Below, in pieces: positions 6,913 through 23,562 of a DNA stretch of 32,000 bases. Positions within the stretch are counted from its first letter, which is position 1. Each line of letters begins with the position of its first letter. The position numbers were made by a program, and so were the translations under genes. This stretch comes from Acaryochloris thomasi RCC1774 (GTDB lineage: Bacteria > Cyanobacteriota > Cyanobacteriia > Thermosynechococcales > Thermosynechococcaceae): contig NZ_PQWO01000004.1 in NCBI RefSeq assembly GCF_003231495.1, positions 330,001 through 362,000 on the forward strand, in the 5' to 3' direction. A model generated the notes under the pieces. The model saw only the letters and a program-made list of their open reading frames with translations, searched no databases and had not been told where the DNA came from.

Positions 6913-7188
6913 ATGTATTTTGATTGGGATGAGCGCAAAGCTGAATCCAATATTCGTAAGCATGGTATTTCCTTTAACGAAGCTGTAACGGTCTTTGCTG
7001 ATCCCTACCTGGTTTTCACTGTAGACCTTGAACATTCTGGTCCAGAAGATCGAGAATGGGCCATCGGTGAAACTGACGGTGGTTTGCCTGTTGTGGTGGT
7101 ATTTACGATGCGTGGTGAGCAAATCAGAATTATTAGTGCTAGACCTGCAACAAAACAAGAACGCCAAAACTATGAATCAGGACTCTGA
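6913..7188 (+). CDS. brnT: BrnT-family ribonuclease toxin (DUF497)
   Basis: YFDWDERKAESNIRKHGISFNEA...FADPY...IRIISARPATKQERQNYE matches the BrnT/DUF497 pattern. I chose the ATG at 6913; the track ORF begins at a TTG at 6898. Confidence 0.85.
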   Translation: MYFDWDERKAESNIRKHGISFNEAVTVFADPYLVFTVDLEHSGPEDREWAIGETDGGLPVVVVFTMRGEQIRIISARPATKQERQNYESGL

Positions 7189-7438
7189 GTTTCCCTTTGA
7201 ACGAGCTAGACGAGTCACACCTGAAGAGCATCAGCAATTTAAAGAGGCGCTTTCTAAGCAATTTGGTCTCCAGCCCAGAAAGCGAGGGCGTCCCGCAAAA
7301 GAGCAAGATGAGAAGTATGAGCCGATTTCGATTCGGCTACACCCGAAGGTTCTAACTTGGGCTAAGGCTGAGGCTCAACGGCGGGGAATTGGCTATCAAA
7401 CGGTAATCAATGAGGTGCTGCTGGCTCAGATTGGTTAG
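7172..7438 (+). CDS. brnA: BrnA-family antitoxin (CopG/RHH-like C-terminus)
   Basis: The ATG at 7172 overlaps the brnT 3' end by 17 nt. The C-terminus ISIRLHPKVLTWAKAEAQRRGIGYQTVINEVL is typical of BrnA. Confidence 0.8.
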   Translation: MNQDSEFPFERARRVTPEEHQQFKEALSKQFGLQPRKRGRPAKEQDEKYEPISIRLHPKVLTWAKAEAQRRGIGYQTVINEVLLAQIG

Positions 7439-7746
7439 AGTGCTGCAAACTAAGCTTGGCAAATCTTGGAGAGCAACTCGCAAGTCGTTGCACTAAGGTC
7501 CGCAATCACAGCAGTTCCATCTACCTCATGTCTTGAGTTTTCTGCCCAAAACCTCCCACAAATTGAGCATGTCGTTGTTTTTAGCGCACGCAGCACAAAC
7601 AACAAGTGCAATGCTACGGGCAACTGCCACTTCAAATGACTGCGCTTATCGATGAAGTTTTGTGCTGAACATTTTCTTTCTTGGGCACTATAAATACAGC
7701 TCACCCCTCTGGGAGCAACACCTTAACCTGAAAGGATATTGTCAGT

Positions 7747-7929
7747 ATGAAACGAGCGACCAAAAAGGTGCTTCCTTCAATAGCAGGTGTTTGGGTCGTT
7801 CTCTTATTGATGAATCTTCCTGCAATGATAAATCCAACACCTCTTTCGAGAGTTCGTGAAAGGTTTGTTGTACAAACAATCTTGTTTGGGATACTTACCG
7901 GATCTGTGGAAATCTTTGCCAAAGAATAG
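7747..7929 (+). CDS. Possible small membrane protein (60 aa), doubtful
   Basis: Basic N-terminus followed by a hydrophobic stretch (MKRATKKVLPSIAGVWVVLLLM...), with AAAGGA upstream. It lies in an AT-rich, ORF-poor region and overlaps an equally long antisense ORF. Confidence 0.25.
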   Translation: MKRATKKVLPSIAGVWVVLLLMNLPAMINPTPLSRVRERFVVQTILFGILTGSVEIFAKE

Positions 7930-8078
7930 CTTGAAAATCTTGTAATTCTGATGCTGAAGAAATTGATTTAGAGTGAATAAAAATATCCATGTGTTGGACT
8001 TCGGATATGAATTGCTGAAAGATAGCTTTCAGTATGATTCCTACCCTAGACTGACGGGTAAAGATACTGGCACTCACC

Positions 8079-9446
8079 ATGCAACGTAAATTGACCGAAG
8101 GCTCCGTCGGCTCACAGCTCATCAAACTGACGTTGCCAATGGTGTGGGGTGTATTTGCTCTCATAGCCTTTAACCTCGTTGATACCTATTTTGTCGGTCA
8201 ACTTGGCACAGCACAGCTTGCTGCCATGAGCTTCACCTTCCCGGTGGTTCTGACCCTCGGAAGTCTAGCAATGGGTTTAGGCGTCGGCGCATCCTCCGTG
8301 ATCGCACGAGCCATCGGCGAAGGCGACATGAGCCGAGTCCAGCGGTTCACTACCAACAGTCTGACGCTAGCCGTAACGGCAGTGGTGCTATTTGTGACCG
8401 TGGGGTTGCTGACCATTGAGCCATTGTTTCAGCTACTGGGCGCAGGGCCAGAGGTGATGCCCTTCATCCAGGACTACATGCAGATCTGGTATTTCGGCAT
8501 GGTGTTTTTAGTGGTGCCAATGGTGGGCAATAGTGCAATTAGAGCTTCAGGCAATACCTTGACGCCTAGCCTAATCATGACGCTCGCCGCAGCCGTGAAT
8601 ATTATTCTCGATCCGTTGCTGATTACGGGGGCGCTGGGCTTTCCAAGATTGGAACTGCAGGGAGCGGCTATAGCAACCGTCATCTCCCGAGCCACAACCT
8701 TAGTGGCGGCACTCCTGGTACTGCGCTTCAAAGAAAACATGCTCTCCATGAAGCTACCAGGTCTAGAAGAGACTCTCTATTGCTGGAAAGATATCTTGAC
8801 CGTAGGCTTACCCGCAGCGGCGGCCAGTATGATTACGCCCATTTCGATTGGTGTGATTACGAGTCTGTTAGCCGTTCATGGTCAGGCTGCAGTCGCAGGT
8901 TTTGGCGTTGCTTCGCGCATGGAATCCTTTGCCCTCATTGCAGTCATGGCCCTATCGGCCAGTATGGGACCGTTTGTTGGTCAAAACTGGGGCGCGCAGC
9001 AGATTGATCGCGTGAGACTGGCACTGCGTCAGAGCTTCTTATTCTGCCTCGGCTGGGGAGTGCTCGTGGCCGTTGGACTCGGACTCGGGGCGCAAGCACT
9101 AGCAGGACTATTCAACAAAGATCCGGACGTGATTGCTGTGGCCGCTCAATACCTCTGGCTGGTGCCTATCAGCTATGGCGCAGCAGGGATTATCCAGGTC
9201 TCAAGCTCAGCCTTTAACGCGATGGGCAAGCCTATTCCATCGATTATTATGACCATCACTCGGATGTTTGTTCTCTATCTACCGCTGGCCTATGTTGGCA
9301 GCAAAATATCAGGGCCAACGGGAATTTTTGCAGCAGCGCTAGTGTCAAATGTGGTTGTGGGAGTGGGGGCTTACGCCTGGAATCGACGAGCCTGCCGTCA
9401 ACAACCTGCCGTCGAGCTGACTAAAAGCGAAGGCCTGAGTCCCTAG
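8079..9446 (+). CDS. MATE family efflux transporter
   Basis: 455-aa, 12-TM-type protein. The N-terminus (LIKLTLPMVWGVFALIAFNLVDTYFVGQLG) and overall pattern are typical of MATE/NorM-DinF transporters. Confidence 0.9.
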   Translation: MQRKLTEGSVGSQLIKLTLPMVWGVFALIAFNLVDTYFVGQLGTAQLAAMSFTFPVVLTLGSLAMGLGVGASSVIARAIGEGDMSRVQRFTTNSLTLAVTAVVLFVTVGLLTIEPLFQLLGAGPEVMPFIQDYMQIWYFGMVFLVVPMVGNSAIRASGNTLTPSLIMTLAAAVNIILDPLLITGALGFPRLELQGAAIATVISRATTLVAALLVLRFKENMLSMKLPGLEETLYCWKDILTVGLPAAAASMITPISIGVITSLLAVHGQAAVAGFGVASRMESFALIAVMALSASMGPFVGQNWGAQQIDRVRLALRQSFLFCLGWGVLVAVGLGLGAQALAGLFNKDPDVIAVAAQYLWLVPISYGAAGIIQVSSSAFNAMGKPIPSIIMTITRMFVLYLPLAYVGSKISGPTGIFAAALVSNVVVGVGAYAWNRRACRQQPAVELTKSEGLSP

Positions 9447-9473
9447 CCCCACTCCCATAGTGGATGAAGAGAG

Positions 9474-10577
9474 TTAAGAGGCCGTCGCGAACTGCCTTAG
9501 GGTTGGATAGTCCGTGTAACCTTCTGGGCCTGAAGTGTAGAATGTATCTGGATCAGGCGCGTTCAGATCTGCATTTTGAGCGAATCGCTCTGGCAAATCG
9601 GGATTGGCAATGAAAGGGACACCGTAGGCAATGGCGTCGGCTTGGTGGGTTGCGATCGCATCTCCTCCCGTCACCGCATCATAGCCACCATTAATAATCA
9701 TCGGCCCTTGAAACCCCTTGCGCATATGGGGATAAACCGTTGGCTCACCTTTCTCCGCCAGCATATGACCGGGCAGCGCCTCTAGCACATGTAGATAGGC
9801 TAGCTGAAAAGCATTCAGAGCCTCTGCGACATGAGTAAACGTTGCCACCGGATCACTATCGCGCATGTCATTAAAAGAACTGGTTGTCGAAAGTCGGATA
9901 CCTACACGGTCCGCACTCCAGGCATTGACAACGCCCTCCGTCACTTCTAAAAGGAAGCGCGCTCGATTGGCAATACTGCCACCGTAGGCATCTGTTCGCT
10001 GATTTGACCCATCTCGAAGGAACTGATCGATTAAATATCCATTGGCTGCATGGATTTCTACCCCGTCAAACCCCGCGCTTTTTGCCTTGCGAGTCGCCTC
10101 TGCATACTGCTCTACAATTCCTGAGATTTCTTCTGTATCAATCGCACGGGGCGTGACATAGGGCTTCTTACCTAAGGGGGTGTGAACTTCACCAAGCGGC
10201 GTTATCTCAGATGCCGAGATCGGGCGAATGCCACCCGGCTGGAAATCAGGGTGAGAGGCGCGGCCTGTATGCCAAAGCTGCAGAACAATCTTGCCTCCCC
10301 GCTGATGGACTGCATTGGTGATCGCTTGCCAGCCTTTAACCTGAGCATCAGAATAAATCCCCGGCGTTTCCGCCCAGCCTGCAGCCGCCTCTGAAATTTG
10401 CGTTGCTTCCGAGATAATCAGACCGGCGCTCGTGCGCTGCTGATAATACTCAACCATCAGCTCATTAGGGATACGCTCTACACCCGCACGCCCCCGCGTT
10501 AACGGGGCCATGATGATCCGATTCTCAAGGTTGATTGCACCCAACTGTAGGGGTTGGAAAAGAGTCGCGTTTTGCAT
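9474..10577 (-). CDS. Alkene reductase / NADH:flavin oxidoreductase, Old Yellow Enzyme family (NemA-like)
   Basis: LFQPLQLGAINLENRIIMAPLTR..., QLWHTGR and GFDGVEIHAANGYLIDQFL are canonical OYE motifs. Confidence 0.9.
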   Translation of the reverse strand: MQNATLFQPLQLGAINLENRIIMAPLTRGRAGVERIPNELMVEYYQQRTSAGLIISEATQISEAAAGWAETPGIYSDAQVKGWQAITNAVHQRGGKIVLQLWHTGRASHPDFQPGGIRPISASEITPLGEVHTPLGKKPYVTPRAIDTEEISGIVEQYAEATRKAKSAGFDGVEIHAANGYLIDQFLRDGSNQRTDAYGGSIANRARFLLEVTEGVVNAWSADRVGIRLSTTSSFNDMRDSDPVATFTHVAEALNAFQLAYLHVLEALPGHMLAEKGEPTVYPHMRKGFQGPMIINGGYDAVTGGDAIATHQADAIAYGVPFIANPDLPERFAQNADLNAPDPDTFYTSGPEGYTDYPTLRQFATAS

Positions 10578-10828
10578 TAGAAATAATACTCGTATGGGAT
10601 GAGAATAGAGAAAATACGGAAGCGTTCAACGCCAAGAGAAGATTAAGGCAGAGATGCTATCGGCTCTAGAATTGAGAGCAAGCTACCTTGAGACTTTCCC
10701 AACCCCCCTTGATCAGAGGAATTTGTCTGCTCGAGTCGATCGCTTTTGTTCCGAGTCGATACCTGACCCATCCACGGGATTTATCTTTGCCTCCTTGAAA
10801 AGAGAGGCTGGGGAATGGCCCCGTGAAT

Positions 10829-11152
10829 TTAAAGGTGCTTATCTAGCGCACTGGAGAGTTTTGACTTTGGTACGGCACCAGTCAGAGACTCAACGGCTTC
10901 TCCAGCTTTAAACACCATCAAGGTGGGAATACTCCGAACATCGTACTGGCTAGCGACATCACTGCTTTCGTCAATATTGAGCTTCACAACCTTGACTTGC
11001 TCAGCATACTGATCGGCAAGTTCTTCGACGATGGGACTGACAACCCGACAGGGACCACACCAAGGTGCCCAAAAATCCACCAATACCGGCTGGGCGTTCT
11101 CTAAAACTTCTTGCTGAAAGGTCGTGTCATTGATAGCAATCGTGGCCGACAT
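10829..11152 (-). CDS. trxA: Thioredoxin
   Basis: WAPWCGPCR active site and thioredoxin length from the ATG at 11152. That ATG is preceded by GAAGGAGG; the track ORF extends further, to 11248. Confidence 0.9.
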
Positions 11153-11176
11153 AGGTGTCCTCCTTCTTGTTCTTAA

Positions 11177-11193
11177 GTTCGAAAGTTTCGAAC
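11177..11193. promoter_or_regulatory. Perfect 8-1-8 palindrome GTTCGAAAgTTTCGAAC in the trxA/arsR-family divergent intergenic region; candidate operator
   Basis: Read directly from the sequence. It is centred in the 78-nt gap between the trxA start (11152) and the ArsR-family start (11231), just upstream of TAGAAT- and CATAAT-like -10 candidates. Confidence 0.45.
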
Positions 11194-11230
11194 AATTAGA
11201 ATATAGATCATTCAATGGCATAATGCAACG

Positions 11231-11551
11231 ATGAAGCTTCTTTATCATCCAGACTGTTCGCAGATTTCTTTGGCTGGGGTTCTATACGCCTTAGGCGATC
11301 CGGTGCGCCTACAGGTCGTGCAGCAGTTAGCGGCTGACGGTGAGCTAACCTGCAATGCTTTTGATTGCGATGTTGCTAAGTCCACAATGTCGCATCACTT
11401 TAAGATTTTGCGAGAATCTGGCGTGATTCGTTCTCGCAAAGAGGGGACTCAGCACGTTAATTCTCTAAGGCAAGACGAGCTGCAGGAACTGTTCCCAGGG
11501 TTATTAGATGCTGTGTTGCAGTCGAGTGCTTGTGGTGCTGTGACCGGATAG
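11231..11551 (+). CDS. ArsR/SmtB family transcriptional regulator
   Basis: [14 protein letters not shown]...[24 protein letters not shown] is a winged-HTH pattern of the ArsR family. A cysteine pair, ELTCNAFDC, sits at the position of the alpha3 metal/redox site. Confidence 0.85.
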
Positions 11552-11852
11552 GTCTGCTGTCACGGAAAAAGTGCTTTGCTTTTGAGGCCAAGTTGGTGAT
11601 CACCTGGTCAGCAATTCTCATTTTAGAGAAACGCTCTTTCTGCAAGGGTGGTGTGTCTTGCTAGGGTGACCGTAAGTGACCTTGTCCACTTTTTTTCGGG
11701 GCAAGGTCACGGGCGGAGTGGGCTGGGTGTGAGGACATATCTGAGTAGGTCTTTTAGACTCTGACATAATCAAGTTTGCTCAGATTTGATCTTCTTCTCA
11801 GCAGACGCGATGGCGTAACCATTGCCGCACTCGTACTTCTCAATTCAAGACG

Positions 11853-12959
11853 TTATCTCTTTGTTTGAGCTGTCACGAAGTTAGCAAAGCTAATCTCGTT
11901 CACCTGATGCCACTGATAAACCTGCTCCCGGAAAGCTGTCCACGGTTCATAGACCCGCCTGAAGTCGCTGTTCTTGGCTGCGTTTTCTGCATACAGCTCA
12001 AACGCTTTCTCTTGGGCTGCTTTGAGAATGTCATCACTATAGCGAGCTAACTTTGTTCCACCCGCCGTTAAGCGCCCCAGAGCCTCACGATTCAAGGCAT
12101 CATACTGGGCCAGCATATTGATATTGGCTTCATAGGCTGCGGTTTTGAAGACTTCTTGATATTCCGTCGGTAGCTTATCCCAGTCTGATCGATTCACCAA
12201 TACGTCTAGCGTGGCCCCCGGTTCCCACCAGCCTGGGTAGTAGTAGTAAGGAGCAGCTTTATGCAGCCCTAGCTTTTCGTCGTCGTAGGGACCAACCCAT
12301 TCTGCCGCATCAATGGTGCCGCGTTCTAGAGCCAAAAAGATTTCCCCCCCAGGAATGAGTTGAACATTGACCCCCAGGCGACTCATCACTTCGCCCCCCA
12401 GCCCCGGAATCCGCATCTTTAGCCCTTTTAAGTCTGCCACCGACTGAATCTGACGCTTGAACCAGCCCCCCATCTGCGTGCCAGTGTTCCCCGCCGGGAA
12501 GTTAATGACCCCAAAGTCAGCATAGATATCTTGAATAGCCTTTAACCCGCCGCCATGATAGAGCCAAGCATTCTGCTGCTGCGCCGTCAGCCCAAAGGGT
12601 ACAGAGGTTGCAAATCCCAGAGCTGGGTTCTTGCCAATGTAGTAATAGCTGGCGGTATGACCACACTGCACCGTTCCTGACTGCACTGCATCTAAAACCT
12701 GGGGGCCGGGGACGATCTCACCGGCTTCAAAGGGTTTAATTTCAAAGCGGCCATCGGTCATAGCACTGACGCGATCGCATACCCTTGTCGCTCCGCCGGA
12801 AATGGTGTCCAGCGAACCGGGCCAGCTTGTTGCCATCCGCCATTGGACTTTGGCAGCGCCCGTTCCCTGTGAGGCTCTACGCGGTATGGGTGAGCAGGCG
12901 GCGGCTGTACTTCCTGCTGCGCCGATTACTGCATTACGGATAAATTTGCTGCGTTTCAC
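11853..12959 (-). CDS. TRAP transporter substrate-binding protein (DctP-type, COG4663-like)
   Basis: Signal-like N-terminus ([21 protein letters not shown]) followed by [13 protein letters not shown]...[11 protein letters not shown]..., typical of TRAP solute receptors. GTG start preceded by GAGGAG. Confidence 0.85.
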
Positions 12960-13684: not shown

Positions 13685-14779
13685 ATGCAGAAAGTTCTTA
13701 TTATTGGCGGCACTGGACGCATCGGCCAAAGTGTTGCGAAGGATATTCTCAGCCATACCGATGCCCACGTCATAATCACGGGTCGCCAAGTGGGGCAGAC
13801 GGTTGCAGATAAGCTCGGTTCTCGGGCAACCTTTCAAGCGCTCGATCTCGCAAACTATGAAGGTCTAAAGAGCGCTGTTGCTGCTGCTGATCTGGTCATC
13901 CACACTGCTGGTCCCTTCCACGATCGCAACGCCCAGGTCTTGCAACTATGTATAGACAATGGTGTCAACTACCTAGATGTCAGCGACCACCGTTCTTTTA
14001 CCAACAAAGCGGTGGCTTATCGAGAAGATGCGATCGCAAACAACGTCACGGCCATCATCAATACAGGCGTCTTCCCCGGCATCTCCAACAGCATGGTGCG
14101 GCAAGATGTTGAAGCACTCGATCAGGCCGAACATATTCATCTGAGCTATGTGGTGGCGGGTTCTGGTGGAGCCGGATTGACGGTGATGCGAACCACTTTT
14201 CTAGGCTTACAGAATACCTTTGACGTGTGGCGTTCAGGTCAGTGGGTGTCAGCGGAACCCTACAGCAAACGCGAAGTGATCCACTTCCCAAAACCCTACG
14301 GACCTGTCAATGTTTTTTGGTTTGATGTCCCGGAGGCGCTGACGCTGGCGCAGTCGTTCGATGTACAAACGGTAATCACAAAGTTTGGCTCGGTGCCAGA
14401 AATATACAACGTATTAACTTGGCTAACGGCTCGACTGCCAAAAGCATTGCTGCGGAAGCGTTCTGTGATTGAGTTCTTCTCTTGGGGCAGCTATCGTTGT
14501 ACAGAATTTAGCGATCGCTTCACGGGGACGGGTGTTGCCATGCGTTCTGAGGTCAAAGGTTTGAAGGATGGGAAGCCGACGACGGCTTGTTCGACATTGG
14601 TGGTGGATGACACTGCGATCGCAGCCGGTTATGGCACCGGTAGTATTGCCCAACTCATCTTGTCAGGGCAGTTCTCTAAACCGGGTGTTTGGCCTGTTGA
14701 AGCGAGTTTTCCCACAGATCTCTGTCAGTCGATGTTGAAACTGCGTGGCGTCAACATCGAACAGCAGATATTCAACTAG
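13685..14779 (+). CDS. Saccharopine dehydrogenase family NAD(P)-binding protein
   Basis: N-terminal Rossmann motif (KVLIIGGTGRIGQSVA) and overall sequence pattern typical of the saccharopine dehydrogenase family. The last ~270 nt are duplicated in diverged form at 15750-16025. Confidence 0.85.
   Translation: MQKVLIIGGTGRIGQSVAKDILSHTDAHVIITGRQVGQTVADKLGSRATFQALDLANYEGLKSAVAAADLVIHTAGPFHDRNAQVLQLCIDNGVNYLDVSDHRSFTNKAVAYREDAIANNVTAIINTGVFPGISNSMVRQDVEALDQAEHIHLSYVVAGSGGAGLTVMRTTFLGLQNTFDVWRSGQWVSAEPYSKREVIHFPKPYGPVNVFWFDVPEALTLAQSFDVQTVITKFGSVPEIYNVLTWLTARLPKALLRKRSVIEFFSWGSYRCTEFSDRFTGTGVAMRSEVKGLKDGKPTTACSTLVVDDTAIAAGYGTGSIAQLILSGQFSKPGVWPVEASFPTDLCQSMLKLRGVNIEQQIFN
14511..14518. repeat. HIP1 octamer GCGATCGC; representative of 23 copies seen by eye
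   Basis: Start positions found by eye: 467, 1135, 1838, 3613, 3769, 4416, 4988, 6088, 9652, 12771, 14030, 14511, 14615, 15858, 18564, 19221, 20954, 21994, 22795, 25400, 25518, 27419, 27711. HIP1 over-representation is a known hallmark of many cyanobacterial genomes. Confidence 0.8.
14511..14779 (+). repeat. Copy A of a diverged direct repeat; this is the in-frame, functional 3' end of the saccharopine-dehydrogenase-family gene
   Basis: By hand alignment to 15750-16025, the shared identical blocks are acgggtgttgccatgcg, gcttgttcgacatt and actgcgatcgcagccggtta. Homology begins at the HIP1 octamer at 14511-14518. Confidence 0.8.
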
Positions 14780-14855: not shown

Positions 14856-14905
14856 GCGATTGCAACCAGTCAGACGCAATTCTAATTTCACCAGGGCTGT
14901 AGGCG

Positions 14906-15316
14906 ATGCCATCTGTTCAAGTTACCTCACAAATCAACCTTGACCTTGACCAACTCATAGAAGGTGTGGCCCAGCTAGACACGCCTGATCTAGAAAAATT
15001 TCTAGCACAAGTGAGCCATGTTCTCGCCCGACGTAAAATTCCAAACCAGCCTGAGCAAGAGACAGAACTGCTGCAGTTAATTAATCAAGGCTTACCCGAC
15101 CCTATTCAGGAACGCTACGATTTTCTCCGAGCAAAATGTCAGGCCGAAACGCTAACGCTCACAGAACACCAAGAACTACTTAAGCTGATCGACACTGCCG
15201 AAAGCTCTACCAATGAGCGGCTAGGACATTTGATAACCCTAGCGAGTCTTCGTCAGGTTTCGCTGCCAGAGTTGATGAAACAGCTCGATATTCAGCCACC
15301 TGCCCCCGATGTCTAG
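14906..15316 (+). CDS. Hypothetical 136-aa helical protein, translationally coupled partner of the HNH endonuclease (possible antitoxin or immunity/adaptor)
   Basis: ATG at 14906. The stop TAG at 15314-15316 overlaps the HNH ATG at 15309 (ATGTCTAG, 8-nt overlap). The sequence is acidic and helical-looking, ending ...LRQVSLPELMKQLDIQPP. I have seen proteins of this kind upstream of small cyanobacterial HNH genes; this is recollection, not a search result. Confidence 0.65.
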   Translation: MPSVQVTSQINLDLDQLIEGVAQLDTPDLEKFLAQVSHVLARRKIPNQPEQETELLQLINQGLPDPIQERYDFLRAKCQAETLTLTEHQELLKLIDTAESSTNERLGHLITLASLRQVSLPELMKQLDIQPPAPDV

Positions 15317-15734
15317 ACGCTACATCACCATCGATGAGCAACAAATCGTTATTGATCGGGCTGCTAAACGCTGTGAATACTGCCAGAGCTTGATGGACTA
15401 CACACCACAATCATTCGCAATTGAGCATATTGTGCCGATCTCAGAGGGTGGTCTAACTTTGTTAGATAATCTAGCCCTTGCCTGTGGTGGCTGTAACGGT
15501 CATAAATACACTAAACAATCCGGCATCGATCCCGTCACGAAAGCGACTACGCCTCTATATCATCCCAGACATCTGCAGTGGGCAGATCACTTTGTATGGA
15601 GTCAAGATTACCTGAGTCTCATTGGTACAACGGCCATCGGTAGAGCAACGATTGAAACACTTAAACTCAATCGAACTGGCGTTGTCAATTTACGTAAGCT
15701 GCTGATTTTAGCTAGATTACATCCACCTAGCTAA
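15309..15734 (+). CDS. HNH endonuclease (small, McrA/COG1403-like)
   Basis: CEYCQS...EHIVPISEGGLTLLDNLALACGGCNGHKY is an HNH ββα-metal motif with a CxxC...CxxC zinc knuckle. Confidence 0.85.
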   Translation: MSRRYITIDEQQIVIDRAAKRCEYCQSLMDYTPQSFAIEHIVPISEGGLTLLDNLALACGGCNGHKYTKQSGIDPVTKATTPLYHPRHLQWADHFVWSQDYLSLIGTTAIGRATIETLKLNRTGVVNLRKLLILARLHPPS

Positions 15735-15749
15735 TCACTATGCCTCGAT

Positions 15750-16025
15750 GCGATCACTTCATGGGCACGGGTGTTGCCATGCGCTCTGAGTCAAAGACCT
15801 GGACCTGAAGGACGCGAAGCCGACGACAGCTTGTTCGACATTGTGGTGGATGATACTGCGATCGCAGCCGGTTACGGCACAGGCGGTATTGCCCAACTGA
15901 TTCTATCGGGGCAGTTCACTAAACCTGGAGTTTGGCCTGTAGAAGCCAGCTTGCCAACTAATTTCTTTCAAAAAATGCTCTCCCAACGTGGCATTTCAGT
16001 TACTCAGAAGATAGCAAAGAGTTAA
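15750..16025 (+). pseudogene. Displaced, frameshifted copy (copy B) of the 3' end of the saccharopine-dehydrogenase-family gene
   Basis: It aligns to 14511-14779. Relative to copy A it lacks a g in gag-tcaaag, has extra bases in acctggacc, and lacks a g in catt-gtgg. The copy-A frame therefore hits TGA after ...GTGVAMRSESKTWT. The last 60 codons are back in frame and 43/59 identical to copy A by hand alignment. The HIP1 site at the junction has decayed to GCGATCAC (15750-15757). Confidence 0.8.
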
Positions 16026-16084
16026 AATCATTCCCATCCTTGAAGGCTACTATGGAGGAGTAGAAGCGTATCATCACCAGATAA

Positions 16085-17212
16085 ATGCTATCTAAGTTGC
16101 AAGTTCAGCATTATAAGAGTCTATTTGATACAGAGATAACATTGGAGCCGTTAACCGTATTCATTGGCCCAAATGGATCGGGAAAGTCTAATATTTGTGA
16201 ATCTTTATCCGTACTATCCAGCTTCTTTCAAGCAATTTCTAATCCCCAAGATTATGACATGCAGGGGCTGTTTACAAAGTACACTCAAAAAACTGGTAGC
16301 AACCAAAGTTTTGAATCTAAATTCTGGCAAGGACAACTGAACTATCTTGTCTTCAAAGCCAGCTCACTAACTATCGAAGACGATCCTCCTTCCGAAGAGG
16401 GGAAAAATATTACTGAATTATCTCTTGGAATTGACTATCCCGAACAGCTAATCTTTGCCAAGGCTTCTAGCAAAGATTATGTAAGGAACAAATACACTGA
16501 ACGAGTTAGGTCTGAGCTGATTGGCTCAGGAGTTTTTGATTCTGAAATCTTCTCTGCACTGAAAAAAGTTGAAGTCTATGATTTCTCTCCTGCTGCCTTG
16601 GCACGTGTCGTTGGTTCATCAGTAACCTCCATGAATCGTACAGGAGAAGGTATTGCCTATGCTCTAGTCGACATCTTGCACGCTGATCGTCAAGGCTTTG
16701 ATGAATTGGAGGAGAGACTGAGGCAGCTCCTGCCCAACATCAGTAGGATTGTTCTACCTCGAGGCAATAATCAGAGCTTCTCACTTGAATTAATCGATAA
16801 ATATTCGGATCACCATATCCCTTCCTCCGATATCTCAGATGGCTCACTGAGAATTATTGCTTTCTTAACAGCGCTGTATCAGGAAGATACTCCAAGTATT
16901 ATTTGCTTTGAAGAGATTGAGAATGGAGTTCATCCTTGGCTTCTACACAAAATGGTGGAGTTACTGAAAATTGTCTCTACTGAGGGAATTTCCGGTCAGC
17001 CAGTCCAAGTTCTGATCACTACTCACTCACCTACACTACTCAACTATGTTGATCCTCATCAAGTACGCGCGGTAGAAATAGATAAAGAAGGTAAAACTCA
17101 AGTTCATACTTTACCAACAGACTCGGCTCGTTTCCGAAAGGCATTGGAAGCATACGACGGAGATTTAGGAGAACTCTGGTTTACGGATCAATTTGGGGGT
17201 AATCCAGCATGA
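16085..17212 (+). CDS. ABC-type ATPase of the AAA_15/AAA_21 (OLD/PARIS AriA/Septu PtuA-like) class
   Basis: Walker A is GPNGSGKS (aa 28-35, nt 16166-16189). The signature-like motif is SDGSLR (aa 251-256), Walker B is IICFEEIENGVHP (aa 272-284), and the H-loop is ITTHSP (aa 311-316). About 200 aa are inserted between Walker A and the signature motif. Confidence 0.85.
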   Translation: MLSKLQVQHYKSLFDTEITLEPLTVFIGPNGSGKSNICESLSVLSSFFQAISNPQDYDMQGLFTKYTQKTGSNQSFESKFWQGQLNYLVFKASSLTIEDDPPSEEGKNITELSLGIDYPEQLIFAKASSKDYVRNKYTERVRSELIGSGVFDSEIFSALKKVEVYDFSPAALARVVGSSVTSMNRTGEGIAYALVDILHADRQGFDELEERLRQLLPNISRIVLPRGNNQSFSLELIDKYSDHHIPSSDISDGSLRIIAFLTALYQEDTPSIICFEEIENGVHPWLLHKMVELLKIVSTEGISGQPVQVLITTHSPTLLNYVDPHQVRAVEIDKEGKTQVHTLPTDSARFRKALEAYDGDLGELWFTDQFGGNPA

Positions 17213-17949
17213 ATCGTCCAATTCGTATTGGGCTGATTGCAGAAGGTGAAGCAGAACTGGGACCGAGTGTGCCCTACATCAAACCTGAAGACGGCGGCAA
17301 GGCAATTGACAGAAACCAGGAAGGAGCACTTCATACGCTTATCAGGCGGGAGCTTCAAAGCATTGGTATCTCAGATTGTGAATTTGTTCAGAGGCACCCT
17401 CTGGCGAAGGAAAGTAAACGCCGGACAGGATATTCGATTCTGCAGCCGAAATATCTGGCTCAGGTCGTAATCTCGTGGTCTCCAGAAGAAGTCGACATGA
17501 TCCTCATTACGGTTGATTCCGACGATGAGCTATCTCAAAGGCAAAGCAAATTACAAAAAGCTTTGGAGACAATCCGTGAAAATCACTTTGATACCAATGA
17601 TCACCCAATTGATGATCAAAGTGTAGGAGGAATAGCAATACGTAACTTTGAAACATGGCTGCTGGCAGATTATCAGGCTGTGGCACAACTGCTAGCGCTA
17701 GATCTAGAAGAGATCGAAAGCTTAGAAGGCTCAGACAGTACGAAAGAGATCTTGGAGCAAGCAACTACTGATTCAACCTACCTTGCTAATGACTCTAGCA
17801 ATCAGCGCCCTCTCCGAGTTCGCTGGGATCTTGCCTTTAAAGTTGATCTGGATGTCGTGAAGTTCCGTTGTCCAGTGGGATATGGTGCGTTTATTCAGGA
17901 CTGTATGCAAACTGCGAGAGCAACCCAAGAGCGTATTGAATCGGAATAG
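17209..17949 (+). CDS. DUF4276-like protein with Toprim-type motifs (putative nuclease effector)
   Basis: The ATG overlaps the ATPase stop (ATGA at 17209-17212). IGLIAEGEAE (aa 7-16) is a Toprim glutamate motif, ILITVDSDDE (aa 98-107) is a DxD motif, and IRNFETWLLAD (aa 144-154) matches what I recall of the DUF4276 signature. The assignment is from memory and was not searched. Confidence 0.7.
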   Translation: MNRPIRIGLIAEGEAELGPSVPYIKPEDGGKAIDRNQEGALHTLIRRELQSIGISDCEFVQRHPLAKESKRRTGYSILQPKYLAQVVISWSPEEVDMILITVDSDDELSQRQSKLQKALETIRENHFDTNDHPIDDQSVGGIAIRNFETWLLADYQAVAQLLALDLEEIESLEGSDSTKEILEQATTDSTYLANDSSNQRPLRVRWDLAFKVDLDVVKFRCPVGYGAFIQDCMQTARATQERIESE

Positions 17950-17965
17950 CAGGCACTGTTGATTG

Positions 17966-18223
17966 CTACTCATAAATGGAACTTCTATGGCCCACTCTAA
18001 TCACAAGCACGATTAGCTCCGCGTCCTGGATACTATAGATAACGCGGTAGTTTCCAGAGCGTATGCGATAGAGATTCGTTTCACCCTTCAATTTTTTGCA
18101 GTCTCTAGGGCGAGGATTTTGTTCTAGCTCTCGTAGCTTTTTACCAATACGTTTTTGTTCAAGCTGTGGTAATTTCTTGAGTTTCTTAACGGCAGTCTTC
18201 TCGATATTGATGCGGTAGCTCAC
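17966..18223 (-). CDS. RelE/ParE family type II toxin
   Basis: KKLPQLEQKRIGKKLRELEQNPRP...LKGETNLYRIRSGNYRVIYSIQDAELIVLVIRVGHR is the classic RelE/ParE pattern. The GTG start overlaps the antitoxin stop (GTGA). Confidence 0.85.
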   Translation of the reverse strand: MSYRINIEKTAVKKLKKLPQLEQKRIGKKLRELEQNPRPRDCKKLKGETNLYRIRSGNYRVIYSIQDAELIVLVIRVGHRSSIYE

Positions 18224-18435
18224 AAACCTAGCTCAGCTTTTACCTCTGCCCAAGGGATTGCACTTCCGGGGGTTGCGCCAGCCAATACCTCCTGAGACAC
18301 CTGAATATCTTCCTGTTCTTCCGCAATTAAAGCTTCTGCAGCTTCCATGAGGAAATCCTCTACGGAGGCATAGCGGCCTTCTGATATAGCTTGATTAATA
18401 TATTGCTCTACTTGAGGACGCAGGGAGATGTCCAT
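18220..18435 (-). CDS. Type II antitoxin (ParD/RHH-like), partner of the RelE/ParE toxin
   Basis: 71-aa acidic protein directly upstream of, and overlapping, the toxin gene by 4 nt. The N-terminus MDISLRPQVEQYINQAISEGRYASVEDFLMEA resembles ParD-type antitoxins. Confidence 0.7.
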   Translation of the reverse strand: MDISLRPQVEQYINQAISEGRYASVEDFLMEAAEALIAEEQEDIQVSQEVLAGATPGSAIPWAEVKAELGL

Positions 18436-18535
18436 TGATTTTCCCCATATAGATTAGATATTTAGATCCTAGCCTAATGACGATAGGCTGCAGCAAGTGG
18501 TCAATTTCGGTCAGAGGGACTCTCCTAATCTATGG

Positions 18536-22224: not shown

Positions 22225-23562
22225 ATGCAACAGTCTGCTCGAAGTCATGCAATTTATCAGTCTCTAGCCCAAGAAATGCAGGCTAGCCTGAGCTTGAGTG
22301 CCCAGCAGCAAGCGGCTTTAGAGCAGCTTCACGATTTTGTGAATGGCTCTGAGTCATTCTTTGTGCTGGAGGGCTATGCCGGGACGGGGAAGACGACGCT
22401 GCTGCAGGCCTTTGTCGCTCAGCTGCAGGGGCAAGGCGATCATCGTCCGATTGTGTTTAGTGCCTTTACCAATAAGGCGACGAAGGTACTGGCCCAAATG
22501 ATGGCGGAGTGGGGGCTGGGCATTGACTGCCTCACCTGCTGTCAGCTCTTAGGGCTGCGGCCCCAGATTAATCAAGAAACGGGGGAGCAGGAGTTTATTC
22601 CTGATAAAGATCAGAAAAGCTCGTTTGAAAAGTATGCCCTGGTGGTGGTGGACGAGTGTTCAATGGTGAATCAAAACCTATGGGAACTCTTGATCACAGA
22701 AGTTGCCTGCTTTCATACCTCGGTGCAGCTTTTGTTTGTGGGGGATTCGGCGCAGCTACCGCCGATTAATGAGGTTTGCTCCCAAACCTTTGTTGCGATC
22801 GCAAATAAAGCTTTGCTCACCGACGTCATTCGCTACGGTGGTGCCATTGGAGTGCTTGCTGAATCGATCCGCTGCGGCTTAGACTCTCAGCGCTTACCCC
22901 CGCTCGTTACCGACCTCAACGCCGAGCAAACAGAAGGCACGGTGGTTTTAAGAACATCGGATTGGGAGCGACAGTTGGTGCGGGCCTTTAGATGCGATCT
23001 CTCTCAGTCCGACCCCGACTATGTGCGGGCCTTGGCCTATACAAATAAGCGCGTCAACGCCCTTAATCGTCAAATCCGAGACGCTATCTTTGGGTGCGAA
23101 GTCCCTCGGTTTGTCCCTGACGAGCGCCTGATTGCCATGCATCCGATCTTTGGTAATGAAGAGGAAATTTTGATGCAGACCTCCTCTGAATGCATCGTCG
23201 AAGAAGCCTGGGAAGACGAATCAAAAGGCTGGCGGATCTGGTGCTTGTATGTCGAGAACGACGCTAATCTCGTGTTTACGCTACGAGTTTTGCATGAATC
23301 TGAGCAGGGAAGATTGAAGCGAGAGTTAAATAAGCTGGCAGAGGCAAAGCAGTGGCAAGACTTTTGGGCTTTGAAGCAGCGCTTTGCCAGCGTTAACTAT
23401 AGCTATGCCCTGACCATTCATAAATCCCAGGGCTCTACTTTCCAAAATGTCTTTCTTGATCTCCCTGATATTATGCGAAATCGGAATGCACGAGAACGCA
23501 ATCAGCTACTGTATGTGGCTGTAACAAGAGCCGCTAAACGTCTTTTCATTCGCCATGCTTAA
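22225..23562 (+). CDS. SF1B RecD/Dda-like DNA helicase (AAA_30 plus UvrD_C_2-type)
   Basis: Walker A is GYAGTGKTT and Walker B is VVVDECSMV. Also present are FVGDSAQLPPI, LTIHKSQGSTF and LYVAVTRAAKRL. The start could instead be the ATG at 22276. Confidence 0.8.
   Translation: MQQSARSHAIYQSLAQEMQASLSLSAQQQAALEQLHDFVNGSESFFVLEGYAGTGKTTLLQAFVAQLQGQGDHRPIVFSAFTNKATKVLAQMMAEWGLGIDCLTCCQLLGLRPQINQETGEQEFIPDKDQKSSFEKYALVVVDECSMVNQNLWELLITEVACFHTSVQLLFVGDSAQLPPINEVCSQTFVAIANKALLTDVIRYGGAIGVLAESIRCGLDSQRLPPLVTDLNAEQTEGTVVLRTSDWERQLVRAFRCDLSQSDPDYVRALAYTNKRVNALNRQIRDAIFGCEVPRFVPDERLIAMHPIFGNEEEILMQTSSECIVEEAWEDESKGWRIWCLYVENDANLVFTLRVLHESEQGRLKRELNKLAEAKQWQDFWALKQRFASVNYSYALTIHKSQGSTFQNVFLDLPDIMRNRNARERNQLLYVAVTRAAKRLFIRHA

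What the first reader, a model, noticed from the sequence alone, without database searches (positions are those of the whole stretch)
16085..17949. ATGA-coupled ABC-type ATPase plus DUF4276-like Toprim protein: a split OLD/PARIS-like two-gene module that may be an uncharacterised defence system
Seen in sequence: gene 1 (375 aa) has a complete ABC/AAA_15-21 motif set. It carries GPNGSGKS, SDGSLR, IICFEEIENGVHP and ITTHSP, with a ~200-aa insertion between Walker A and the signature motif. Gene 2 (246 aa) starts inside the gene 1 stop (ATGA at 17209-17212). It carries Toprim-type acidic motifs (IAEGEAE, ITVDSDD) and FETWLLAD, which I recall as the DUF4276 hallmark. The pair is visibly AT-richer than core genes. 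By hand count, GC is 25/60 at 16141-16200 and 26/60 at 16501-16560, against 34/60 at 12421-12480. It lies between an HNH cassette and a RelE/ParE TA pair. Established knowledge: an ABC ATPase combined with a Toprim nuclease is the logic of OLD, Gabija GajA (fused) and PARIS (AriA plus the DUF4435 Toprim AriB). Inference: this is a related sensor-ATPase/Toprim-effector system, but with a different Toprim family and a much shorter ATPase than AriA. I do not recognise it as any experimentally named system.
Basis: partly seen in the sequence, partly recalled or inferred. Interest (0 to 1): 0.85.

Follow-up and report, generated by a model that had tools for sequence, protein, structure and literature searches.

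The report
ABC ATPase plus DUF4276 nuclease pair (HEC-01)
Two overlapping genes in this cyanobacterial window encode an ATP-driven sensor-like protein and a small Toprim-type nuclease; the pair is real and strictly conserved, but it belongs to a candidate anti-phage system already catalogued as HEC-01, so it is a new member of a known kind.

Summary
The two ORFs (16085-17212 and 17209-17949), the ATGA overlap, every quoted motif and the hand GC counts are all as stated. Gene 1 is an AAA_21/AAA_15 ABC ATPase, and its nearest solved relatives are PtuA and OLD. Gene 2 is a divergent, full-length DUF4276 protein with a Toprim-like fold and an intact E...DxD site.

The pair is one unit:
- 70 of 71 related loci carry both genes.
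- The 4-bp start/stop overlap is present in 67 of 67 evaluable loci.
- The two genes co-diverge and are under purifying selection.

Both proteins hit PADLOC-DB's HEC-01A and HEC-01B models best. HEC-01 (ABC ATPase plus TOPRIM protein) was defined by Payne et al. (2024). It has been tested twice: one representative showed no defence, and another protected against at least one of three coliphages. The ABC-plus-DUF4276 pairing is also known as Mad3-Mad4 of MADS.

The defence-island context is weak. Elsewhere the pair's neighbours are mostly housekeeping genes.

The most likely mechanism is that the ATPase senses an infection cue and releases or activates the Toprim nuclease. This is inferred by analogy only. 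The window is from Acaryochloris thomasi RCC1774, where gene 1 is annotated as 'Smc'.

The parts
16085..17212 (+). Gene 1: 375-aa ABC ATPase of the AAA_21/AAA_15 (OLD/PtuA) clade, HEC-01A-type. It carries Walker A G28-S35 (K34), signature S251-R256, Walker B/D-loop I272-E279 (E276, E277) and H-loop T312-P316.
   Evidence: Pfam AAA_21 1.5e-30 and AAA_15 2.3e-22. PADLOC HEC-01A PDLC04175 7.7e-43 over residues 2-374. All motif residues are invariant in 36 homologues. The AF2 model (pLDDT 70.8) matches PtuA, SMC head, OLD and Rad50 at E ~1e-13 to 1e-11. The protein is 100 % identical to a protein annotated 'Chromosome partition protein Smc' in Acaryochloris thomasi RCC1774.
17209..17949 (+). Gene 2: 246-aa DUF4276-family protein (HEC-01B-type). 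It has a Toprim-like beta-alpha core plus a C-terminal helical domain. Predicted catalytic residues are E12 (with E14 and E16), D103 and D105 (DxD), and E148 and D154 (FETWLLAD).
   Evidence: Pfam DUF4276 1.4e-5, below the gathering score. PADLOC HEC-01B 4.1e-8. hhalign against generic DUF4276 gives 99.9 %, E 4e-34. The listed residues are invariant in 37 sequences. The AF2 model has pLDDT 80.8 and pTM 0.83, with strand-helix order b1(5-12), b2(57-61), b3(97-103), b4(139-144). The top PDB fold matches are the Toprim-containing C-terminal regions of OLD, 6njx and 6nk8, but they are weak (E 1e-2, TM 0.40/0.46).
17209..17212 (+). ATGA start/stop overlap: the gene 2 start codon overlaps the gene 1 TGA stop, giving translational coupling.
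   Evidence: Seen in the sequence. The same 4-bp overlap (ATGA 63, GTGA 3, TTGA 1) is present in 67 of 67 evaluable related loci.
14900..18440 (.). Low-GC3 accessory stretch that contains the pair. It comprises the orf136/HNH cassette, the orphan 3' fragment of the saccharopine-dehydrogenase-like gene, the pair itself and the ParE/antitoxin pair. This is context only and is not part of the conserved system.
   Evidence: GC3 is 0.36-0.48 for every ORF in this stretch, against 0.53 +/- 0.06 elsewhere. None of these neighbours is conserved next to the pair in 71 other loci.

Best explanation
This is a two-gene cassette of the HEC-01 type: an OLD/PtuA-clade ABC ATPase (gene 1) translationally coupled to a DUF4276 Toprim-fold nuclease (gene 2). 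It sits in the chromosome of Acaryochloris thomasi as a horizontally acquired accessory module. Shown here: both proteins keep complete catalytic motifs, are inherited as one unit, and are under purifying selection. Inferred by analogy with PARIS, OLD, Gabija and Septu: the two proteins form a complex in which the ATPase acts as sensor and scaffold and keeps the nuclease inactive. On an infection cue (a phage protein, or aberrant DNA or DNA ends), ATP binding or hydrolysis releases or activates the Toprim nuclease. The nuclease then cuts nucleic acid, and this stops phage production by growth arrest or abortive infection. The substrate could be tRNA, as for AriB and P2 Old, or DNA, as for GajA and class 1 OLD. 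Sub-confidences: identity as an HEC-01-type ABC + DUF4276 pair about 0.9; a role in phage or mobile-element defence about 0.6; the specific sensor-release-nuclease mechanism about 0.35; the substrate is unknown.
For: Identity: PADLOC HEC-01A 7.7e-43 and HEC-01B 4.1e-8 are the best hits. Pfam gives AAA_21/AAA_15 and DUF4276. hhalign against generic DUF4276 gives 99.9 %, and 9 of 10 remote relatives pass Pfam's DUF4276 threshold.
Unit: 70 of 71 loci have a gene 1 homologue directly upstream. The 4-bp overlap is present in 67 of 67 loci, and identities to the window co-vary with r = 0.78. No other window gene is co-conserved.
Activity: Walker A, signature, Walker B and H-loop are invariant. E12, D103, D105, W150 and D154 are invariant and E148 nearly so. 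dN/dS is 0.09-0.13.
Fold: the gene 2 model's top PDB matches are OLD Toprim regions. The gene 1 model matches PtuA, OLD, SMC and Rad50.
Accessory and horizontal origin: low GC and GC3. The closest relative (82 %) lies in another family, Thermosynechococcaceae, and relatives also occur in Chloroflexota and Rhodothermales.
Literature: HEC-01 is defined as ABC ATPase + TOPRIM and found embedded in Hma defence systems (10.1101/2024.01.29.577857). One HEC-01 representative protected E. coli against at least one of T4, T5 and T7 (10.1101/2024.09.26.614923). DUF4276 is assigned to the Toprim superfamily and Mad4 is a homologue (PMC12065111). MADS3-4 is listed among ABC ATPase + TOPRIM systems (PMC11464382).
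Against: No experiment exists on this cyanobacterial branch. The HEC-01 representative tested by the system's authors showed no defence. Gene 2 falls below Pfam's gathering score, and its HEC-01B hit covers only residues 39-187. The structural match to OLD Toprim is weak: no PDB hit reaches E <= 1e-3. The pair is not in defence islands. Its immediate neighbours in 70 loci are mostly urease, iPGM and CobS genes, and only a few defence or TA genes occur. It was not found on viral contigs. Complex formation, trigger and substrate are all inferred.
Confidence: 0.6

Rival explanations
1. The pair is a non-defence DNA-maintenance module, paralleling RecF (ABC ATPase) and RecR (Toprim protein). It would act in recombination or repair rather than immunity.
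For: Gene 1's N-terminus hits RecF and SMC models (NCBIfam RecF 6.3e-8; Pfam SMC_N 3.7e-10). In other cyanobacteria the pair sits between housekeeping genes at lineage-specific, syntenic positions: urease alpha/UreD in Nostoc, iPGM in Nostocales, CobS in Pseudanabaena. In this window it lies 2.8 kb from recA.
Against: The distribution is patchy: 71 species hits in 185,579 species genomes, and Acaryochloris's nearest relative lies in another family. Low GC and GC3 indicate acquisition. Best family matches for both proteins are defence candidates, not repair proteins. The RecF and SMC hits cover only the Walker A region. HEC-01 was found embedded in Hma defence systems.
Confidence: 0.1
2. The pair is a selfish addiction or toxin-antitoxin-like cassette. 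The nuclease would be the toxin and the ATPase its regulator. The cassette would persist by post-segregational killing or mobile-element competition, without a dedicated anti-phage role.
For: It is a tightly coupled two-gene unit with a 4-bp overlap. It is a solo cassette moving between unrelated chromosomal sites. Here it lies next to a ParE TA pair and an HNH cassette. Payne et al. saw no phage defence for their HEC-01 representative.
Against: A different HEC-01 representative did protect against phage. Related ABC ATPase + Toprim systems (PARIS, OLD, Gabija) are bona fide abortive-infection defences. Abortive-infection systems and TA modules overlap in practice, so this rival is partly semantic.
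Confidence: 0.15
3. The pair is a detached module of a larger system: Mad3-Mad4 of the eight-gene MADS system, or a Septu-like PtuA working with the upstream PtuB-like HNH gene (15309-15734).
For: Gene 1 hits PADLOC mad3 (7.1e-19) and NCBIfam MAD3 (1.1e-30). Its closest solved structures are PtuA. The upstream HNH ORF hits PtuB models at 3.1e-14.
Against: The MAD3 score of 107 bits is far below the 420-bit cut-off. Gene 2 hits no mad4 model. No other mad genes or methyltransferase lie nearby. The HNH gene is upstream and is separated from gene 1 by a 350-bp spacer (15735-16084) that holds the orphan gene fragment. It is found in only 3 of 71 loci, none adjacent to the pair. The only conserved partner of gene 1 is gene 2.
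Confidence: 0.04

Closest known systems
HEC-01 (Hma-embedded candidate 01; PADLOC-DB; Payne et al. 2024, bioRxiv 10.1101/2024.01.29.577857)
   Same: It has the same two-gene architecture: an ABC ATPase (HEC-01A) followed by a TOPRIM-like DUF4276 protein (HEC-01B). Both window proteins hit these models best. Payne et al. also report a conserved metal-binding site for HEC-01B.
   Different: This is a divergent, mainly cyanobacterial branch. The HEC-01B hit is modest (4.1e-8, residues 39-187), and Pfam DUF4276 falls below threshold. The pair is not embedded in an Hma, BREX or RM system here and stands alone among housekeeping genes. I could not run PADLOC's own system-calling thresholds.
MADS Mad3-Mad4 (methylation-associated defence system)
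   Same: An AAA_15/21 ABC ATPase is paired with a DUF4276 Toprim protein (PMC12065111; PMC11464382). Gene 1 has partial similarity to MAD3.
   Different: MADS is a multi-gene, methylation-linked system, and no methyltransferase or other mad genes are present here. The MAD3 equivalog cut-off is not reached (107 bits against 420). Gene 2 has no mad4 model hit.
PARIS (AriA ABC ATPase + AriB DUF4435 Toprim tRNase)
   Same: It is a split two-gene ABC ATPase + Toprim effector system of the AAA_15/21 clade. The generic AriA models hit gene 1 (1.8e-32). It is the probable model for how the pair works: sensor-scaffold and nuclease release.
   Different: The effector belongs to a different Toprim family: DUF4276, with no DUF4435 or AriB hit at E <= 1. 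The ATPase is shorter (375 aa, about 42 kDa, against 55 kDa for AriA). No viral or satellite carriage was found.
OLD family nucleases / Gabija GajA
   Same: They combine the same ABC ATPase clade with a Toprim nuclease. The OLD Toprim regions are the top fold matches for gene 2, and OLD 6p74 matches gene 1.
   Different: In OLD and GajA the two domains are fused in one polypeptide. Here they are separate, overlapping genes. No GajB-type helicase is adjacent.
Septu PtuA / retron I-A PtuA
   Same: These are the closest solved structures to gene 1 (Foldseek E ~4e-13; profile E 2.7e-9).
   Different: PtuA's partner is an HNH nuclease (PtuB). The conserved partner here is DUF4276, and the nearby PtuB-like HNH ORF is not co-conserved.

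Membership tests
HEC-01 (PADLOC candidate system) | A protein matching HEC-01A ABC ATPase models | tested here: met
   PDLC04175 7.7e-43, residues 2-374 against profile positions 6-362 of 363. Five of the top seven hits are HEC-01A models.
HEC-01 (PADLOC candidate system) | An adjacent protein matching HEC-01B (TOPRIM/DUF4276) models | tested here: met
   PDLC04200 4.1e-8 (residues 39-187). Twelve of the 14 hits are HEC-01B models. The gene overlaps gene 1 by 4 bp.
HEC-01 (PADLOC candidate system) | The pair is called as a system by PADLOC's own per-model E-value and coverage thresholds and synteny rules | not testable with these tools
   Only the HMM library was available, not PADLOC's metadata or pipeline.
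DUF4276 (PF14103) / Toprim superfamily | Sequence membership in PF14103 | tested here: inconclusive
   A direct Pfam scan gives 25.9 bits, below the gathering score of 30.2. However, many close homologues carry precomputed PF14103. The family profile reaches proteins that pass the threshold, and hhalign gives 99.9 %, E 4e-34 over residues 3-239.
DUF4276 (PF14103) / Toprim superfamily | Toprim signature: a conserved Glu after strand 1 and DxD after strand 3, on a beta-alpha-beta-alpha-beta-alpha-beta core | tested here: met
   E12 follows b1 (5-12). D103 and D105 lie at the end of b3 (97-103). The strand-helix order comes from the AF2 model. These residues are invariant in 37 sequences and align with E/DxD of generic DUF4276.
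DUF4276 (PF14103) / Toprim superfamily | Significant structural similarity to a solved Toprim domain | tested here: inconclusive
   The top PDB hits are OLD C-terminal regions 6njx (E 1e-2, prob 0.93, TM 0.40/0.46) and 6nk8. No hit reaches E <= 1e-3.
ABC ATPase, AAA_15/AAA_21 (OLD/PtuA clade) | Walker A, ABC signature, Walker B/D-loop and H-loop, with the family profile matched above threshold | tested here: met
   AAA_21 107.7 bits (cut-off 27) and AAA_15 80.6 bits (cut-off 32.1). The motifs are invariant. Fold matches are PtuA, OLD, SMC and Rad50.
MADS (Mad3-Mad4 within the multi-gene system) | MAD3 equivalog score, a mad4 hit, and the accompanying methyltransferase and other mad genes | tested here: not met
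   NCBIfam MAD3 gives 107 bits against a cut-off of 420. Gene 2 has no mad4 hit. No mad or methyltransferase hits occur in neighbours.
PARIS | AriB: a DUF4435-type Toprim effector next to AriA | tested here: not met
   Gene 2 has no DUF4435 or AriB hit at E <= 1 in Pfam or PADLOC. The AriA hits are generic AAA_21/AAA_15 profiles.
AbiL | AbiLii (RloB-type Toprim) next to AbiLi | tested here: not met
   Gene 2 has no RloB or AbiLii hit. The AbiLi hit to gene 1 is secondary (3.1e-23).
Gabija / class 1 OLD | ATPase and Toprim fused in one protein (plus a GajB helicase for Gabija) | tested here: not met
   There are two separate ORFs. The GajA hit covers only ATPase segments. There is no adjacent helicase: the nearest UvrD-like ORF is at 22225-23562, beyond recA.
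Septu | PtuA with an operonic, co-conserved PtuB HNH partner | tested here: not met
   The HNH ORF at 15309-15734 hits PtuB (3.1e-14). However, it lies upstream across an orphan gene fragment and is not adjacent to the pair in any of 71 loci.

The most novel reading that the evidence does not exclude
This cyanobacterial clade of ABC ATPase + DUF4276 pairs has been resident for long periods between housekeeping genes, not in defence islands. It may have a trigger, substrate or role unlike PARIS, OLD or Gabija. One example would be a Toprim RNase aimed at cyanophage-specific cues. Another would be a chromosome-maintenance function akin to RecF/RecR. If so, studying it would give the first mechanism and first structure for any DUF4276 protein.
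Probability: 0.12. Interest if true: 0.6.

Novelty: new member of a known kind. Interest (0 to 1): 0.3.

Why it matters
The finding corrects an annotation: gene 1 is deposited as 'Chromosome partition protein Smc', and gene 2's family is mostly labelled 'hypothetical'. It also places a well-conserved cyanobacterial clade (at least 71 species) inside the HEC-01 / ABC ATPase + DUF4276 group. That group has conflicting phage-defence tests, no known trigger or substrate, and no solved relative of the DUF4276 partner detectable by sequence in the PDB. The clade's strict gene coupling and intact active sites make it a reasonable model for working out how DUF4276 Toprim effectors act. As a discovery it adds a member, not a new kind of system.

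Tried and rejected
- **Exact-sequence look-ups:** gene 2 and the 100 %-identical gene 1 protein returned no contig, so the source contig's own gene calls could not be read.
- **PDB sequence searches:** profile searches with the gene 2 family (A1) and generic DUF4276 (A2) gave no hit even at E <= 10.
- **Foldseek against viral structures (BFVD):** nothing meaningful.
- **Viral-contig scan for gene 2 relatives:** none, so there is no evidence of phage or satellite carriage as seen for PARIS.
- **PHROGs:** no gene 2 hit, and only function-unknown ATPase families for gene 1.
- **NCBIfam:** no model for gene 2.
- **Promoter/terminator scan:** no more hits than in shuffled sequence, and no convincing promoter upstream of gene 1.
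- **HIP1 (GCGATCGC):** there is a 2.7-kb HIP1-free gap over the pair, but similar gaps occur elsewhere, so I did not use it as evidence of foreign origin.
- **Septu, Gabija, PARIS, AbiL and MADS membership:** considered and rejected (see the membership tests).
- **Sdh-fragment duplication as island boundary:** rejected, because it brackets only the HNH cassette.
Full report
**1. Observation**

ORF 16085..17212 (+, 375 aa) and ORF 17209..17949 (+, 246 aa) share ATGA at 17209-17212.

In gene 1 the motifs sit as follows:
- GPNGSGKS at residue 28
- SDGSLR at 251
- IICFEEIENGVHP at 272
- ITTHSP at 311

In gene 2 they sit as follows:
- IAEGEAE at residue 10
- ITVDSDD at 100
- FETWLLAD at 147

The three hand GC counts are exact. 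Gene 1 has GC 0.415 and GC3 0.356. Gene 2 has GC 0.464 and GC3 0.409. The other 25 window ORFs average GC 0.513 +/- 0.035 and GC3 0.531 +/- 0.061, and the sliding profile dips to 0.41-0.45 between 15.5 and 18.5 kb.

One correction is needed. The ~215 residues between Walker A and the signature motif are the normal AAA_21 layout, because residues 23-320 align to profile positions 1-304 of 304. The spacing is not special to this protein.

**2. What the two proteins are**

Gene 1 is an ABC ATPase of the AAA_21/AAA_15 group: Pfam gives 1.5e-30 and 2.3e-22, both far above threshold. Walker A (G28...K34 S35), the signature (S251 D252 G253 L255 R256), Walker B/D-loop (C274 F275 E276 E277 E279) and the H-loop (T312 T313 H314 S315 P316) are invariant across 36 homologues.

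An AlphaFold2 model of gene 1 (pLDDT 70.8, pTM 0.73) matches several solved structures with Foldseek E of about 1e-13 to 1e-11:
- PtuA of Septu and of type I-A retrons
- the SMC head
- Thermus OLD
- Rad50

By sequence profile, the closest solved relatives are PtuA (2.7e-9) and OLD (5.3e-6).

Gene 2 scores below Pfam's gathering threshold for DUF4276 (25.9 bits against 30.2). Homology is nevertheless secure, on four grounds:
- Many close homologues carry precomputed PF14103.
- A profile of the gene 2 family reaches generic DUF4276 proteins in an exhaustive search.
- Nine of the ten such proteins I scanned pass the Pfam threshold.
- A profile-profile comparison gives 99.9 % probability, E = 4e-34, over residues 3-239. 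It aligns AEGxxE, VDxDxD and FExWLxAD.

The gene 2 model (pLDDT 80.8, pTM 0.83) has a strand-helix alternation of b1 5-12, b2 57-61, b3 97-103 and b4 139-144, followed by a helical C-terminal domain. The invariant E12 follows b1, and the invariant D103/D105 close b3. This is the Toprim signature.

The best PDB fold matches are the Toprim-containing C-terminal regions of Xanthomonas and Burkholderia OLD: 6njx (E 1e-2, prob 0.93, TM 0.40/0.46) and 6nk8. These are weak, and nothing reaches E <= 1e-3. I therefore treat the fold assignment as supported by topology, motifs and the literature, not by Foldseek alone. Two papers independently assign DUF4276/HEC-01B to the Toprim superfamily (PMC12065111; 10.1101/2024.01.29.577857). 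No solved structure is related by sequence to either DUF4276 profile.

**3. The pair is one unit**

A scan of one genome per species found 71 loci encoding a gene 2 relative.
- In 70 of them a gene 1 homologue lies immediately upstream. The single exception has only 42 bp of contig upstream.
- The 4-bp start/stop overlap occurs in 67 of 67 evaluable loci: ATGA 63, GTGA 3, TTGA 1.
- Identities of the two proteins to the window copies co-vary (r = 0.78, n = 55).
- dN/dS against the closest relative (82-83 % amino-acid identity) is 0.13 for gene 2 and 0.09 for the available half of gene 1.
- None of the other window genes is conserved next to the pair elsewhere. This covers the saccharopine-dehydrogenase-like gene, orf136, HNH, ParE, the antitoxin, ADP-ribosylglycohydrolase, orf385 and DUF1508.
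- A generic DUF4276 gene from outside the clade is also preceded directly by an AAA_21/AAA_15 gene.

**4. Source and context**

Gene 1 is 100 % identical to a protein of Acaryochloris thomasi RCC1774, where it is annotated 'Chromosome partition protein Smc'. That annotation is wrong.

The clade is mostly cyanobacterial: Nostocales, Planktothrix, Pseudanabaena, Chamaesiphon, Thermosynechococcaceae and Acaryochloridaceae. A few members occur in Chloroflexota and Rhodothermales. The nearest relative lies in a different family, which together with the low GC points to horizontal acquisition.

The pair is not a defence-island resident. Of 123 nearest-neighbour ORFs in 70 loci, the commonest Pfam families are:
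- urease alpha (13)
- iPGM (10)
- CobS (7)
- UreD (6)

Only a handful of neighbours are defence- or TA-related: Uma2 (4), RelE (2), and single PD-T4-6, DpdF and methyltransferase hits. In Planktothrix and Pseudanabaena the cassette sits alone among housekeeping genes. The Planktothrix copy lies near an NB-ARC/VMAP gene. No relative was found on viral contigs.

In this window the flanks are an orf136/HNH cassette, an orphan gene fragment and a ParE TA pair. All have low GC3, so the region is a small patch of accessory genes.

**5. Comparison with known systems**

Both proteins hit PADLOC-DB's HEC-01 models best. HEC-01A gives 7.7e-43 over the full length, HEC-01B gives 4.1e-8, and 12 of gene 2's 14 hits are HEC-01B models.

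HEC-01 was defined by Payne et al. as an ABC ATPase with a TOPRIM protein, found embedded in Hma systems. Their representative showed no defence in their assays. A later study reported that a cold-seep HEC-01 representative protected E. coli against at least one of T4, T5 and T7. The PARIS paper lists MADS3-4 (ABC ATPase + DUF4276) and AbiL among ABC ATPase + TOPRIM systems.

Membership tests against the other named systems fail:

| System | Why it fails |
|---|---|
| MADS | MAD3 scores 107 bits against a 420-bit cut-off; no mad4 hit; no methyltransferase nearby |
| PARIS | No DUF4435/AriB hit |
| AbiL | No RloB hit |
| Gabija / OLD | Domains are not fused; no adjacent helicase |
| Septu | The PtuB-like HNH upstream (3.1e-14) is separated from gene 1 by an orphan fragment and is not co-conserved |

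The pair is therefore a divergent member of the HEC-01 / ABC + DUF4276 kind. I could not run PADLOC's own thresholds.

**6. Mechanism**

Shown here:
- Catalytic motifs are intact in both proteins.
- The two genes are translationally coupled.
- They co-diverge.
- They are under purifying selection.

Inferred from PARIS, OLD, Gabija and Septu (established literature):
- The ATPase is the sensor and scaffold, and it restrains the Toprim nuclease.
- An infection cue, acting through the ATP cycle, frees or activates the nuclease.
- The nuclease then cleaves tRNA or DNA and halts phage production.

Trigger, stoichiometry and substrate are unknown. Rivals are a RecF/RecR-like maintenance role, a selfish addiction cassette, and a detached module of MADS or Septu. 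Each has limited support (see the rival explanations).

**7. Verdict**

The novelty claim is not supported: this is a new, cyanobacterial member of an already catalogued and partly tested candidate system. Interest is modest. It rests on the conflicting functional tests of HEC-01, the absence of any mechanism or detectable solved relative for DUF4276 proteins, and the clade's unusually stable residence outside defence islands.

Noticed in passing
window 14511-14779 and 15750-16025: The last ~270 bp of the saccharopine-dehydrogenase-like gene (13685-14779) is repeated as an orphan fragment (ORF 15771-16025) at 83-92 % DNA identity. The two copies bracket only the orf136/HNH cassette (14906-15734). 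This is the pattern expected from a Campbell-type single-crossover integration of a circular element that carried a diverged copy of the gene's 3' end.
   Followed up: partly
window 14906-15734: This is a two-gene cassette with an 8-bp overlap. It consists of a 136-aa ORF with no Pfam or PADLOC hit and a 141-aa HNH endonuclease. The HNH protein hits Septu PtuB models (3.1e-14) but is shorter than PtuB. It lies just upstream of a PtuA-like ATPase, yet it is not co-conserved with that ATPase.
   Followed up: partly
window 16085-17212: The identical protein in Acaryochloris thomasi RCC1774 is annotated 'Chromosome partition protein Smc'. This is a mis-annotation driven by the SMC_N-like Walker A region. 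Several homologues carry the same label. The exact gene 2 product is not on record in the protein collection.
   Followed up: partly
window 17966-18435 (- strand): A ParE-family toxin (84 aa, Pfam 7.1e-14) and a 71-aa upstream partner with no family hit overlap by 4 bp. They are convergent with gene 2, with only 16 bp between the two stop codons.
   Followed up: no
window 22225-23562 (+): A 445-aa SF1 helicase (AAA_30/AAA_19/UvrD_C_2, RecD/PIF1-like) lies just downstream of recA. It hits PADLOC candidate models PDC-M16A (1.5e-37) and PDC-S68. Whether it is housekeeping or defence-related was not examined.
   Followed up: no
whole window: The HIP1 palindrome GCGATCGC occurs 23 times, against 0.8 expected, which is typical of cyanobacteria. 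None lies between 15866 and 18563 (the pair plus the TA genes), but HIP1-free gaps of similar size exist elsewhere.
   Followed up: partly
L039, L045, L049, L051, L053, L055, L056, L058, L060, L061, L077 and other Nostoc loci, around 6950-12320: In many Nostoc species the pair sits between the urease alpha-subunit gene and ureD. In Anabaena and Dolichospermum it lies next to iPGM, and in Pseudanabaena it follows cobS. The insertion sites are lineage-specific and stable, not defence islands.
   Followed up: partly
L001-L004 (Planktothrix agardhii), 10856-12585: Directly downstream of the Planktothrix copy of the pair lies an NB-ARC / HTH_VMAP-M9 ATPase gene, an NLR/AVAST-like conflict-system protein. 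Beyond it is a variable segment that differs between strains.
   Followed up: no
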